Part shown: positions 36,001-40,168 of the stretch, in pieces | How the letters are laid out: every line of letters begins with the position of its first letter | Numbering within the stretch: position 1 is the stretch's first letter | Assembly (NCBI GenBank): GCA_030324005.1 | Contig: JARDVH010000133.1 | Span: 24,674,527-24,738,526 of the forward strand | Source of the DNA: Negaprion brevirostris | Lineage: Eukaryota | Direction of reading: 5' to 3' | DNA: 64,000 bases | Program-made: the position numbers

Positions 36001-39000
36001 GACAGAGTGAGAAGGTACATCTAGAATCATAGAATCCCTACAGTGCAGTAGGAGGCCATTTGGCCCATCAAGTCTGCACCAATCACAATTCCACCCAGGT
36101 CCTATCCCCATAGCTAGTCCCTCTAAAACCAAGGGGCAATTTAGCATGGCCAATCCACCTAACCCACACATCTTAACATGAATGGGGAAATCAAATTAAT
36201 GCTAAATGTTAGTCATAGATTTCACTGGTATTGGTACCGCACAGCATTGTTCACAGATTGTTACAGCACAGATAACAGCTGTGTGTAGAGGCCTACAGGG
36301 TAACTTGAAAGGAACAGCCTGACTTTGCTCAGATGAGGAACATGTAAGACAAGTTGTGGCTTCTTGTCAAGGTTATCAGAAGGCTGAGGGGAAACCCATG
36401 TAAATTGCTGTCATTGATTTTCCAGAAGGCTTTTAAACTGTTTGCCTCGTGGCCCTCGGGCAGCTGGGAGTTTCCAATTCTTAGTCAAATCTTGGGATTT
36501 ATTCCAAAGCATGTATTGTTACTATAGGAACTGTGTTGGTGTGATTGAGAGGCCCGCTGGGCTCATCCCTGTCAAACGAAGAGAGAGGTAAAGATGTCAG
36601 ATTGTCATCTTCAATGATGTGTTGGAATTTATTGTGAAGGATGGACTTGGAATATCTGTTCCAAGGAATCTGAAAGTCTTCTGGTGCTCATTTCACAGAT
36701 ATTGCATTGCTAATGGACTCAACTTGTTTGCTGCAAACTTAACATCTCAAACCATGAGCTACTGAGGGATGGATTTTCAATGGGATATGTTGGTTTGTTT
36801 TCCCAGGAGCAGAATTATTCTTTTTGGGGGCCCAAAGGTAAAGCTTGAAGGTATTTATCGGAAAATATCAGGGAAGTTGTCCAATTCTTGATTCCAGTCA
36901 GTGTCTGGTGATTCTGGTGGATTGGGGCCGTGCTCAGAGAAAAATGTCAACGCAGGTTAAACTTGTGGCATTCCGAGTCCTTGTTACGAAATGCGCAGGT
37001 TTACTTCAGTCTCGTGCAAGATTCAAAACTAAGCTGGCAAAAGGAAAATGGCTGCCAAGGGAGCTGGTTCCCTGACCTACACAGATCGTCTTGGGCACTC
37101 TGAAAGGATGAGCCAACCACACTGCTTTCTGTTAACCAAATAAACTAAACCAACTTGCTGTGGGCTAAATTTAAAATGCAGTTCCTCAGAGGGGTGTTGC
37201 ATCAAAATAAAGAGTCTCAAAGGAAGCTTAAAACATCAAAACAAAATGTGATCAAAGGGACTGATAGTGCACCCGAATCATCACCATTCCACTGGGCAAG
37301 AGGACTTTGATGGTGCTGGCAGACTGCGTGCTCCCTTTCCAGGGACACCCAGCAGCAAACGTAGCCGCAGAAGAGGGGCAGACGTTCCTGACAGATGACA
37401 CCCTTGACTGACCACTGCCTGGACCTATTAATGACCAGGCCTAGGAGTGGGCCCCAACCACACTGTGTCAGGGGCTCTTTTGGAGAGTCAATGCAGACTC
37501 AGTGGGCCAAATGGCTTCCTTCTGCACTGTAGGGATTCTATTCAATGGATCATTTGGTGATGCAAAGTGTAACCTATTCAGGCACCTACAGCAGACACAG
37601 TCATCCGATACCAGACTCAGGNNNNNNNNNNNNNNNNNNNNNNNNNNNNNNNNNNNNNNNNNNNNNNNNNNNNNNNNNNNNNNNNNNNNNNNNNNNNNNN
37701 NNNNNNNNNNNNNNNNNNNNNNNNNNNNNNNNNNNNNNNNNNNNNNNNNNNNNNNNNNNNNNNNNNNNNNNNNNNNNNNNNNNNNNNNNNNNNNNNNNNN
37801 NNNNNNNNNNNNNNNNNNNNNNNNNNNNNNNNNNNNNNNNNNNNNNNNNNNNNNNNNNNCAGTAGCTCAGTTCAGAATCTGCTCCAGGTTGCAATGGCGT
37901 GCTACGCAGGTCACTACCATTTCAGGTGAAAACAAATGAGAGGTACCATTTCAACTGTGATTTTTGTGTAGAAGTCTCTGGAATGACACTTGAACCCATC
38001 AATATTCTAATGAATGTCTTTAATTCTGGATTTAGATGTTCTAATGCTTTTCATATTTCATGTGAGCACTACAGACAGACCCATTTGTATTTCTCAATAT
38101 TTCCCTTTCCTTTCTGAGCAGGCTGGGTAAAGATTGAAAAGTGCTTTTAGCTACCTCGGGGATGTACAAAATTGAGTGACTTTATAAAAATGTTTTTGCT
38201 CCATTCTTAAAGCGAGAAAGCTAATGTGTGGTGCGGACAGGGAAAACCCTTAATCCATCTCCTTCCTTGCTTCAAAAACTAATTCAAATCGAGACTGAAT
38301 CCACTTCATTGTCCCTACATTGATTTGGTTTATTATTGTCCCGTGTATTGGGGATACAGTGAAAAGTATTGAGGGGAATTCTCCCGCCCCTCCCACCACA
38401 GGAATCCTAGCGGGGGTTGGGGTGGAGGGGGTGGGGGAGAACCACGCAAATTTCCATTAACCTTGGGGAGGANNNNNNNNNNCGGTTATGGGGCCAGCAG
38501 GGCCAGAGAATCTCACCCTTTGTTTCTTGTGCGCAAAGAAAAACATACCATTCAGAGTAGAGGAGGAGGAAAGGATAGGGTGCAGAATATAATGTAACAT
38601 TATTAGATAGTTTAAAGGAATTAGAGTCCAGTTTTAAGATCATAGAATAGAATAAGAGGGCATGCTGGGACTGCTCTCAAGAAGCCGCATTACTCCAGCG
38701 CCATCTTTCCTTTTCTCTCTTTAACCAACATTGTCACCATCCCTTTTTGTCTGAAAATGCCCAATCTCATCTGGTCTCAGAAGCTAAGCAGACTTGGACC
38801 TGGTTAATACTTGGATGGGAGGCTGCCGAGGATACCAGGTGCAGCAGATTTTTAGGCTTGTGTGGCTCAGACTTTTAGTCTGAGGATTCAGGGTTCATGT
38901 CCCTGTCTAGGTGCTGCTTTTGTCTGGACGTGTTCATTTCCCAGGGAAGGATGTGGGAGATCGAGGATACCAGAACATTAGGCATTATTAGGAACTATAG

Positions 39001-40168
39001 TCAACTTGGGTATAAACCGTGCTAGTCGCTACGAGTGCTTAATCTTGCAAGCCTTAATTACTGAATAATCAAAGCAGAATTCTTCAGAAGAGTGCGTGAA
39101 GTGTAAAAAAAAGATGAGAGACATACAGATTCAAGCTGACAAGAAAAAACACTGCTCTTAATCTGACGCTTAAGTTTATTTATTAGTGTCACAAGTAGGT
39201 TTACATTAACACTGCAATAGAGTTACTGTGAAAATCCTGTAGTTGTCACACTGAGGCACCTGTTTGGGTACACTGAGGGAAAATTTAGCATGGCCAATGC
39301 ACCTAACCTGTACATCTTTTGGACTGTGGGAGGAAACTGGAGCACCTGGATGAATCCCACACAGACACAGGGAGAATGTGCAGACTCCACACAGACAGTG
39401 ACCCAAGCCCGGAATAGAACCCAAATCTCTGGCGCTGTGAAGCAGCAGTGCTAACCACTGTGCACTTGATCTTAACCAAGAGGCCAGGTTGAATGATTGT
39501 ACTTTCATTTTCTGAGCACCATTATCACATCAGTATTCCCAAGTGCCTCGCACCATGAATAACTTGCTGAAGCGAAGCCACTTCTTTGTGATGTTGTCTG
39601 TCCCTGTCTTTATCATATCAGTCATTAATCAATCCGTCCGACAGTGTTAAATAGATCTCAAACTTCAAGGCAACCTTCCATGAATGTTCCTGTTCTCTGC
39701 TCCCTCAAGTTGTTGGTGGAGCATTGATGTAGATGGAGGGAAGTGGGGTGTTTTAAAGGATGTAATGGATTATGAAATCATTCCCTTTAGGCAAATGCTC
39801 AGCAAGATTTACATGATTAAATACGTAGCTTTGTCTGCTGAAATTAATAATGAATGGACACCATTGCCATTTAAATATTCTTAGTGTGAAATCTTGAGAT
39901 TATACACAGCCTCATCTTACAGCACAGACTCTGGAATCCAGCCTTAGGCAGCACAGTAATGGGAGGTAATGTTTTAACCTGTAATTTCTGTTATTTTTGC
40001 AATTAATTGAAGTGGGACAGAGGGACTGAATGTTTTTCCTCTTGGCCTCCCCGTTTCCACGTCTCTGTTATTGATTTCCCTCTCCTGCCTCCTTGTGCCC
40101 GTGCTTATATTCAGCTCAATTATGGTGTTTGCTTTTGTTCTTGTTCCTCCCTCCCTCCTCCCTCTCTC

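What the first reader, a model, noticed from the sequence alone, without database searches (positions are those of the whole stretch)
38749..39112. 5S rRNA fused directly to tRNA-Lys(UUU): chimeric Pol III element
Seen: a 5S-like sequence ending in T5 (38849-38853) is followed within 1-2 nt by a tRNA-Lys(UUU)-like sequence. The tRNA part lacks about 15 nt of the D arm between two TCAG repeats and is followed by a T run, about 190 bp of unexplained sequence and A8 (39105-39112). Established: 5S+tRNA double-headed SINEs exist (AmnSINE1), but this body does not look like a Deu domain. Inference: an uncharacterised dimeric-head SINE, a template-switch retro-chimera, or a decayed linked 5S-tRNA unit. 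The internal T5 would terminate Pol III, which argues against an active SINE in this form.
Basis: partly seen in the sequence, partly recalled or inferred. Interest (0 to 1): 0.65.

Follow-up and report, generated by a model that had tools for sequence, protein, structure and literature searches.

The report
Fossil 5S–tRNA-Lys retroposon chimera
A worn-out copy of 5S ribosomal RNA sits end to end with a worn-out lysine tRNA copy and about 190 unexplained bases, a layout already known from some vertebrate SINEs, so it is a fairly ordinary dead retro-element.

Summary
Rfam's 5S model matches 38729-38850 end to end at 44.5 bits (cut-off 38). It is the only match in the 64 kb that reaches a family's cut-off. 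Two bases after the T5 run (38849-38853), the tRNA model matches 38856-38913 end to end with the D arm missing and anticodon UUU. That score is 18.8 bits, below the cut-off of 29, but the E-value is about 1e-4 if tRNA alone is counted.

Both modules are decayed: 8 of 34 pairs in the 5S fold are broken, and four T4-or-longer runs lie inside the element. The 183 bases from the tRNA trailer to the A8 run match nothing I could test.

My best reading is an old chimera made at the RNA level. A reverse transcriptase reached the 5' end of a tRNA-headed RNA and switched to the 3' end of a 5S RNA. This gives the composite "5S + tRNA" head described for AmnSINE1-type SINEs (PMC3234267, PMC4824008).

I could not decide whether this is one copy of a SINE family or a one-off. 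There is no second copy in the window, and no eukaryotic genome or repeat library (Dfam, Repbase) was on hand. Interest is low to moderate.

The parts
38729..38853 (+). 5S rRNA-derived module with its terminal T5 run. It is decayed: 8 of 34 model pairs are non-standard, there is a 4-nt insertion, and a second T5 lies at 38744-38748. Similarity is convincing from about 38738-38749 onward.
   Evidence: Rfam 5S_rRNA, 44.5 bits against a cut-off of 38, model positions 1-120 of 120. Sequence read. The single-strand fold is no better than shuffles, z = +0.71.
38854..38855 (+). 2-nt spacer (AG) between the end of the 5S T run and position 1 of the tRNA-like module.
   Evidence: Coordinates of the two covariance-model matches and the sequence.
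38856..38913 (+). tRNA-Lys(UUU)-like module without a D arm. Acceptor, anticodon and T arms are kept, and the anticodon lies at 38874-38876.
   Evidence: Rfam tRNA, 18.8 bits (cut-off 29), model positions 1-71 of 71, with 15 D-arm positions replaced by 1 nt and 1 non-standard pair. The fold shows an extended anticodon stem and a 5-bp T stem. ARAGORN default mode finds nothing; its mitochondrial mode calls a D-armless tRNA(ttt).
38914..38921 (+). 4 nt followed by a T4 run. It looks like a tRNA 3' trailer with a Pol III stop; this is inferred.
   Evidence: Sequence. T4-or-longer runs occur 7.5 times per kb on this strand of the window, so one could also be here by chance.
38922..39104 (+). Body of unknown origin, 183 nt, non-coding. 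CpG observed/expected is 0.79 for 38922-39112, against 0.09 in the two head modules. It holds an exact 12-nt copy (38962-38973) of part of the 5S module (38827-38838).
   Evidence: No Rfam match at E up to 10 other than chance-level ones. No other copy in the window. No match to the tail-motif repeats or to SINE family B. CpG counts.
39105..39112 (+). A8 run, a possible remnant of an A-rich 3' end.
   Evidence: There are 10 runs of A8 or longer in 61,939 non-N bases, so the chance of one in a given 300 nt is about 0.047.
38670..38680 (+). 5' half of the only candidate target-site duplication. Its partner is at 39151-39161, with 10 of 11 bases identical. It lies 49 nt upstream of the 5S start, and its partner lies 39 nt past A8. 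It is probably chance.
   Evidence: My own estimate is about 0.06 such pairs expected by chance between flanks of this size.

Best explanation
This is an old, inert retroposed chimera that was joined at the RNA level. A LINE reverse transcriptase was copying an RNA made of a tRNA-Lys-derived head, a body of about 190 nt and an A-rich end. It reached that RNA's 5' end and switched to the 3' end of a 5S rRNA, which it copied almost completely. The product has the composite '5S + tRNA' head known from AmnSINE1/SINE3-class SINEs.

I think this locus is most likely one copy of an old or low-copy family of that class in what looks like a shark genome, rather than a unique event.

Shown here: the two modules, their completeness, their 2-nt spacing and their decay. 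Inferred: the template switch, family membership, and the host group (recalled from the repeat content, not tested).

In its present form the locus does nothing. The 5S fold is broken, the tRNA lacks its D arm, and four T4-or-longer runs would stop Pol III.
For: (1) The 5S model is covered 1-120 of 120 and ends in the T run. The tRNA model is covered 1-71 of 71 and starts 2 nt later. Two small RNAs joined exactly end to start is what reverse-transcriptase template switching produces. It is the origin proposed for composite 5S + partial-tRNA SINE promoters (PMC4824008, passages read) and for HaSE3 (PMC3272025, abstract and passages read).

(2) AmnSINE1 is described as a 5S-derived promoter, a tRNA-derived region, a Deu domain and a 3' tail, 570 bp in all (PMC3234267, figure legends read). 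This is the same order of modules.

(3) An A8 run lies 183 nt past the tRNA trailer; the chance of one in a given 300 nt is 0.047.

(4) Both head modules have lost nearly all CpG: 1 CpG in 193 nt, observed/expected 0.09, against 0.31 for the window. That fits one old insertion.

(5) Prior odds (inference): a family leaves thousands of loci and a three-part one-off leaves a handful, so a locus met at random is more likely a family copy. SINE3-class elements are reported from various vertebrates (PMC7245038, passage read).
Against: Only 1 copy is in the 64 kb (blastn with word size 7, nhmmer, and a 22-nt pattern with up to 3 mismatches). By contrast, the neighbouring SINE type gives 22 nhmmer matches and family B gives 3 full copies.

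There is no convincing target-site duplication.

The body shows no L2/MIR-type tail in the only test I could make. Against three old copies, 49, 75 and 119 of 500 shuffles reached the observed score, and the profile found no match at E up to 1000. The power of this test is low.

The body is too short for a whole 330-bp Deu domain.

T runs at both module ends look like primary Pol III transcripts, which a successful SINE master should have lost.

The body keeps 6 CpG in 191 nt (observed/expected 0.79), unlike the heads. This is unexplained if all parts are the same age.

No paper I found reports a 5S-headed SINE in cartilaginous fish (searches; the table of the review PMC10946416 lists none).
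Confidence: 0.5

Rival explanations
1. A one-off template-switch retro-chimera (5S rRNA + pre-tRNA-Lys + a third RNA with an A-rich end) that never amplified. It would be a processed pseudogene, not a SINE.
For: It is a single copy in the window. Both modules carry what look like their own Pol III stops: T5 right after the 5S, and 4 nt plus T4 after the tRNA. This is expected for primary transcripts copied once. Chimeric LINE-1 insertions with 5S rRNA (10.5% of 253) and with tRNA are documented in mammals (bioRxiv 10.1101/2025.02.02.635956, passages read).
Against: In that catalogue the 5S and tRNA parts are mostly truncated and antisense to the LINE part. Here both are complete and in sense. 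Three-part chimeras would be very rare, so meeting one in a given window is unlikely a priori (inference). No target-site duplication flanks the unit.
Confidence: 0.3
2. A DNA-level arrangement: a decayed pair of linked 5S and tRNA-Lys genes, or a stray fragment of a 5S rDNA repeat with a tRNA gene in its spacer.
For: Each module is followed by its own T run, as genes are. The body shares an exact 12-mer with the 5S 3' part; 1 of 3000 shuffles reached that length. A local alignment spans the junction, reached by 26 and 23 of 1000 shuffles under two scoring schemes. These could be the remains of a second tandem unit.
Against: Only 2 nt separate the 5S stop from tRNA position 1. That leaves no spacer or upstream region for the tRNA gene (inference from known Pol III gene layout). 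There is 1 5S match in 64 kb and no array. The second-unit signal is weak: 146 of 1000 shuffles reached it under the third scheme, and 2 of 284 real window pieces also share 12 or more bases with the heads.
Confidence: 0.07
3. Two independent insertions that happen to abut: a 5S pseudogene, and later a tRNA-Lys-headed SINE landing just after it.
For: The window is dense in SINEs: 22 matches to the neighbouring type and 3 copies of family B.
Against: It needs an insertion within 2 nt of the exact end of the 5S copy. No target-site duplication surrounds the tRNA unit alone. The two heads show similar CpG loss.
Confidence: 0.05
4. Only the 5S pseudogene is real, and the tRNA likeness is chance.
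For: The tRNA score of 18.8 bits is below Rfam's cut-off of 29. ARAGORN in default mode finds nothing. ARAGORN's permissive mode makes 33 calls in 64 kb.
Against: Counted for the tRNA family alone, E is about 1e-4 in the 701-nt search and about 0.009 for the whole window (derived). The match covers the whole model and starts 2 nt after the 5S end. The anticodon and T arms are intact, with 1 non-standard pair.
Confidence: 0.05

Closest known systems
AmnSINE1 (amniote DeuSINE; RepeatMasker class SINE/5S-Deu-L2)
   Same: Same order of modules at the 5' end: a 5S-derived promoter followed by a tRNA-derived region, then further sequence (PMC3234267, legends read). The same proposed origin applies: a template switch from a tRNA-headed SINE RNA to 5S rRNA (PMC4824008, passages read).
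   Different: The AmnSINE1 consensus is 570 bp, with a vertebrate Deu domain of about 330 bp and an L2-type tail. Here only 183 nt follow the tRNA trailer. No L2/MIR-type tail was detectable, and the Deu domain could not be compared. The tRNA part here runs end to end apart from the D arm, whereas the literature speaks of a 'partial tRNA'. This copy keeps T runs at both module ends.
SINE3-1 (zebrafish) and OS-SINE1 (salmonids), 5S-headed fish SINEs
   Same: A 5S-derived head acts as an internal type 1 promoter. Both are members of the DeuSINE superfamily (PMC4824008; table of PMC10946416, passages read).
   Different: Their tails come from other LINE partners. None is reported from cartilaginous fish in the papers I could search.
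HaSE3 (Helicoverpa), a chimera of 5S rRNA and the tRNA-derived SINE HaSE1
   Same: A 5S head is placed in front of sequence taken from a tRNA-headed SINE, explained by template switching. It is low in copy number compared with its tRNA-headed parent (PMC3272025, abstract and passages read).
   Different: HaSE3 shares the body and tail of HaSE1, not its tRNA head. Here the tRNA-like head itself is kept. HaSE3 is an insect element with an RTE partner.
LINE-1-mediated chimeric retrocopies with 5S rRNA or tRNA (mammals)
   Same: A small Pol III RNA is fused to another RNA in a single insertion event by template switching or RNA ligation (bioRxiv 10.1101/2025.02.02.635956, passages read).
   Different: Those have a LINE-1 3' end as partner and mostly truncated, antisense 5S or tRNA parts, with target-site duplications of 7-15 bp in 6 of 8 loci checked. 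Here there is no LINE part, both modules are whole and in sense, and no clear duplication is present.
MEG-TR (fruit bats), a hybrid tRNA/5S SINE
   Same: It combines a tRNA-derived and a 5S-derived module in one SINE (listed in the table of PMC10946416). The module order is recalled from the title and abstract of Gogolevsky et al. 2009, which I did not read here.
   Different: As recalled, its modules are in the opposite order. It is a mammalian, L1-dependent element.

Membership tests
SINE (criteria of SINEBase, PMC3531059, Definitions section, passages read) | Short (<1 kb) interspersed, non-tandem repeat | tested here: inconclusive
   The length of about 384 nt (38729-39112) fits. It is not tandem. 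It is not seen repeated: 1 copy in 64 kb.
SINE (criteria of SINEBase) | [quoted passage not shown] | not testable with these tools
   No eukaryotic genome, Dfam or Repbase is on hand.
SINE (criteria of SINEBase) | [quoted passage not shown] | tested here: met
   This was tested with a covariance model rather than percent identity. The 5S model scores 44.5 bits, above the curated cut-off of 38, over all 120 positions. Identity to the host's own 5S was not measured.
SINE (criteria of SINEBase) | [quoted passage not shown] | tested here: inconclusive
   Extra sequence is present: the tRNA-like module plus 183 nt. Shared diagnostic changes need other copies, and none is available.
AmnSINE1 / DeuSINE superfamily | 5S-derived promoter followed by a tRNA-derived region | tested here: met
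   5S at 38729-38850 and tRNA at 38856-38913, on the same strand.
AmnSINE1 / DeuSINE superfamily | Deu domain (about 330 bp in vertebrates, with a core of about 120 bp; PMC4824008) | not testable with these tools
   No Deu consensus could be obtained; figures and supplements are not held. By length alone, a complete 330-bp domain cannot fit in the 183-nt body.
AmnSINE1 / DeuSINE superfamily | L2-type 3' tail | tested here: not met
   A recalled 18-nt L2/MIR-type tail motif finds 2 sites in the window against 0.04 expected. The body does not align significantly to these copies or to a third one (49, 75 and 119 of 500 shuffles reach the score). It also does not match their profile at E up to 1000. 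Power is low: the three copies barely detect each other.
Functional 5S rRNA gene | Intact 5S secondary structure and a place in a tandem array | tested here: not met
   8 of 34 pairs are non-standard, 4 of them among the 9 pairs of helix I, and there is a 4-nt insertion. The fold has z = +0.71 against shuffles. There is a single 5S match in 64 kb.
Functional tRNA-Lys gene | Complete cloverleaf scoring above the tRNA cut-off | tested here: not met
   The D arm is absent and the score is 18.8 bits against a cut-off of 29. ARAGORN in default mode finds nothing.
LINE-mediated chimeric retrocopy (L1 type) | Poly(A) end and flanking target-site duplications of about 7-20 bp | tested here: inconclusive
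   There is only an A8 run (chance 0.047 per 300 nt). The only repeat pair (10 of 11) is displaced 49 and 39 nt from the ends. Erosion with age could explain this.

The most novel reading that the evidence does not exclude
This may be the first 5S-headed (SINE3-class) family seen in a cartilaginous fish. It would be caught in an unusually unprocessed state: a whole 5S RNA with its U tail, joined to a nearly whole tRNA-Lys head. That would be a frozen intermediate showing directly how AmnSINE1-type composite promoters were born by template switching. It would also push that invention back to, or repeat it in, the shark lineage.
Probability: 0.2. Interest if true: 0.45.

Novelty: new member of a known kind. 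Interest (0 to 1): 0.25.

Why it matters
If other copies exist, this would add a 5S + tRNA-Lys-headed family to the SINE3 class in a vertebrate group where the papers I could search list none. It would also be a clean example of the template-switch route by which composite Pol III promoters arise; AmnSINE1, made that way, later supplied enhancers in mammals. If it is a single event, it is one more processed pseudogene with no consequence. Either way the locus is dead, and nothing suggests a function for the host.

Tried and rejected
Searches for other copies:
- Looked in the window with blastn (word size 7), nhmmer and a 22-nt pattern with up to 3 mismatches. Only the element itself came back.
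- 11-mer matches elsewhere led to four loci. Alignment scores were reached by 8, 17, 87 and 77 of 300 shuffles, so all are weak.
- Fished for other copies through translated frames. A 48-aa frame had no candidates in the 5.8-billion protein set; only lengths of 26-84 aa were searched. A 41-aa frame gave 9 hits in the 1.84-billion representative set. All were long proteins, 7 of the 9 matched in several stretches, which I took for low-complexity matches; none was fetched or inspected.

Ideas for the body:
- 'The body is the antisense head of the 354-bp SINE family B' (suggested by the 40.3-kb locus): rejected, because 68 of 500 shuffles reach the score against the family consensus.
- 'The body is a second, decayed 5S-tRNA unit': suggestive only. 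The score was reached by 26, 23 and 146 of 1000 shuffles under three schemes. The shared 12-mer was reached in 1 of 3000 shuffles, but also by 2 of 284 real window pieces. Earlier separate tests gave 71 of 1000 (5S against body) and 26 of 1000 (tRNA against body).
- 'The body carries an L2/MIR-type tail': no support.
- Rfam at E up to 10 on 38600-39300 gave only chance-level matches apart from 5S and tRNA.

Other checks:
- Pfam on 16 open frames of the window gave nothing but two sub-threshold matches.
- ARAGORN's mitochondrial mode supports a D-armless tRNA, but it makes 33 calls in the window, so I discounted it.

Literature:
- Nishihara et al. 2006 is not held.
- '5S-Deu-L2' together with 'shark' gave 0 papers.
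- '5S-Deu-L2' alone gave 14 listed papers, none on sharks judging by titles and abstract openings.
- 'SINE3' with names of cartilaginous fish gave only mentions of zebrafish SINE3.
- Pinhal et al. 2011 on stingray 5S rDNA mentions no tRNA or SINE3.

Not run: a scan of genome contigs, because it holds only bacteria and archaea.
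Full report
**What is there**

The window is eukaryotic DNA with 16 runs of N. I take it for a shark or ray genome from its repeat content. That identification is recalled, not tested.

On the + strand, Rfam's 5S rRNA model matches 38729-38850 over all 120 model positions at 44.5 bits (gathering score 38; E 5.4e-06 for the whole window). It is the only match in the 64 kb that reaches a family's gathering score. 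The last bases of the match run into a T5 (38849-38853).

After two bases (AG), Rfam's tRNA model matches 38856-38913 over all 71 model positions. Fifteen positions of the D arm are replaced by a single base, and the seven-base anticodon loop has UUU in the middle. The tRNA score is 18.8 bits, below the gathering score of 29. The E-value of 0.43 is for 701 nt, both strands, times 4227 families. That corresponds to about 1e-4 for the tRNA family alone, and about 0.009 for that family over the whole window.

ARAGORN's default mode finds no tRNA. Its mitochondrial mode, which allows missing arms, calls a D-armless tRNA(ttt) at 38851-38912. That mode makes 33 calls in the window, so I give it little weight.

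After the tRNA part come 4 nt and a T4 (38918-38921), then 183 nt that match nothing, then A8 (39105-39112).

- A further T5 lies inside the 5S part (38744-38748).
- The 'two TCAG repeats' cannot be seen in the window, which keeps only one.

**State of decay**

In the 5S alignment, 8 of 34 base pairs are non-standard, 4 of them in the 9-pair closing helix, and there is a 4-nt insertion. The RNA fold of the 5S part is no better than shuffled sequence (z = +0.71).

The tRNA part keeps its acceptor, anticodon and T stems, with 1 non-standard pair, but has no D arm.

Four T4-or-longer runs lie in the element on this strand. That is about the background density of 7.5 per kb, so nothing has kept the unit free of Pol III stops.

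The two head modules hold 1 CpG in 193 nt (observed/expected 0.09). The body holds 6 in 191 nt (0.79), and the window average is 0.31. The loss in the heads fits an old methylated insertion. The excess in the body is unexplained, and the numbers are small.

**How it most likely arose**

Both small-RNA modules are complete from first to last model position, and they are joined 3' end to 5' end with two bases between. A DNA-level gene pair would need spacer and upstream sequence for the tRNA gene. Two independent insertions would have to land within 2 nt of each other.

Reverse-transcriptase template switching joins RNAs in exactly this way. It is the mechanism proposed in three places:
- for the 'composite structure of 5S rRNA and partial tRNA' in the promoters of a few vertebrate SINE families (PMC4824008, passages read);
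- for AmnSINE1, whose consensus is drawn as a 5S-derived promoter, a tRNA-derived region, a Deu domain and a 3' tail, 570 bp in all (PMC3234267, figure legends read);
- for the insect SINE HaSE3 (PMC3272025, abstract and passages read).

On this model the downstream unit was the first template. That unit is the two extra bases, the tRNA-like head, about 190 nt and an A-rich end. It has the layout of a tRNA-headed SINE RNA. SINEBase notes that such SINEs carry a short extra G-rich sequence before the tRNA part (PMC3531059, passage read). The 5S RNA, with its U tail, was the second template.

These steps are inferred. What is shown is only the anatomy.

**Family or one-off**

The session has no eukaryotic genome and no Dfam or Repbase.

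Within the window there is no second copy. Abundant SINEs are easy to see by comparison: the type that lies next to the element (39175-39480, minus strand) gives 22 nhmmer matches, and a 354-bp family gives 3 full copies.

Attempts to find other copies through translated frames in the large protein sets gave nothing usable.

I lean towards a family copy (0.5) over a unique chimera (0.3), mainly on prior odds. A family leaves thousands of loci and a three-part chimera leaves a handful. 5S-headed SINEs are reported from various vertebrates (PMC7245038, passage read).

Against the family reading:
- T runs sit at both module ends.
- No target-site duplication was found. The only candidate, 10 of 11 bases, is displaced by 49 and 39 nt.
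- No recognisable LINE-type tail was found.

**The body**

It is non-coding and matches no Rfam family.

A recalled L2/MIR-type tail motif does occur twice in the window, against 0.04 expected. The body aligns to those copies and to a third no better than chance (49, 75 and 119 of 500 shuffles). It does not match their profile. Power is low, since those copies hardly detect each other.

The Deu domain itself could not be compared. At 183 nt the body cannot hold the full 330-bp vertebrate domain (length from PMC4824008).

Two ideas raised by eye did not survive controls:
- That the body is an antisense head of family B: 68 of 500 shuffles reach the score.
- That it is a second decayed 5S-tRNA unit: 26, 23 and 146 of 1000 shuffles reach the score under three scoring schemes.

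One signal remains. An exact 12-nt word is shared between the 5S 3' part (38827-38838) and the body (38962-38973). It was reached in 1 of 3000 shuffles, but 2 of 284 real pieces of the window also share 12 or more bases with the heads. A small internal duplication is possible but unproven.

**Comparison and novelty**

The architecture (a 5S head followed by a tRNA-derived part) is known, so this is not a new kind of element. I cannot file it under AmnSINE1 or the DeuSINEs, because the Deu domain is untested and the tail test was not met.

It may still be catalogued in Repbase or Dfam, which I could not see. The supplementary files of PMC5499810 and PMC3531059 (consensus alignments and SINE tables) might also bear on this and are closed.

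The papers I could search list no 5S-headed SINE in cartilaginous fish:
- searches;
- the table in the 2024 review PMC10946416, passages read;
- PMC5499810 and PMC2746220, which mention only the tRNA-headed SacSINE1 in sharks, passages read.

That is a statement about those searches, not about the databases. I rate the finding as a new member of a known kind, with interest 0.25.

Noticed in passing
window 39175-39480 (minus strand), plus 21 further matches across the window: An abundant SINE type with a tRNA-like head lies 62 nt downstream of the A8 run. nhmmer with this copy finds 22 matches at E<1e-3 in the 64 kb. From memory it resembles the common shark SINEs (HE1/V-SINE type); that identification was not tested.
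   Followed up: partly
window 12943-13344 (+), 23987-23630 (-), 40213-40570 (+): A second SINE family ('B') of about 354 bp has three full, well-preserved copies (376-408 bits to their joint profile). It has a tRNA-like head and an A-rich internal stretch.
   Followed up: partly
window 24199-24300 (-), 28563-28693 (-), 18617-18748 (-): Three old copies of a repeat whose end carries a recalled L2/MIR-type tail motif: 2 motif hits against 0.04 expected. They are so diverged that they barely detect each other.
   Followed up: partly
window 38729-38921 versus 38922-39112: CpG observed/expected is 0.09 in the two head modules and 0.79 in the body (window 0.31). If all parts entered together, the body should have lost its CpGs too. 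The numbers are small (1 against 6 CpGs).
   Followed up: no
window 38827-38838 and 38962-38973: An exact 12-nt direct repeat links the 3' part of the 5S module and the body. It was reached in 1 of 3000 shuffles, but 2 of 284 real window pieces do as well. A small internal duplication is possible.
   Followed up: yes
window 38744-38748: A T5 run inside the 5S-like module overlaps the 4-nt insertion (38744-38747) relative to the 5S model. It would stop Pol III about 20 nt into the unit.
   Followed up: no
window 58474-58914 (+): An open frame has a sub-threshold match to the reverse-transcriptase family RVT_1 (16.2 bits, cut-off 29.6). It is probably a LINE remnant next to a 569-N gap. It was not examined as a possible partner LINE.
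   Followed up: no
window 38473-38482 and 15 other N runs: There are sixteen N runs (10 to 569 N; 2061 N in all). One 10-N gap lies 247 nt upstream of the element. They were left as they are.
   Followed up: no
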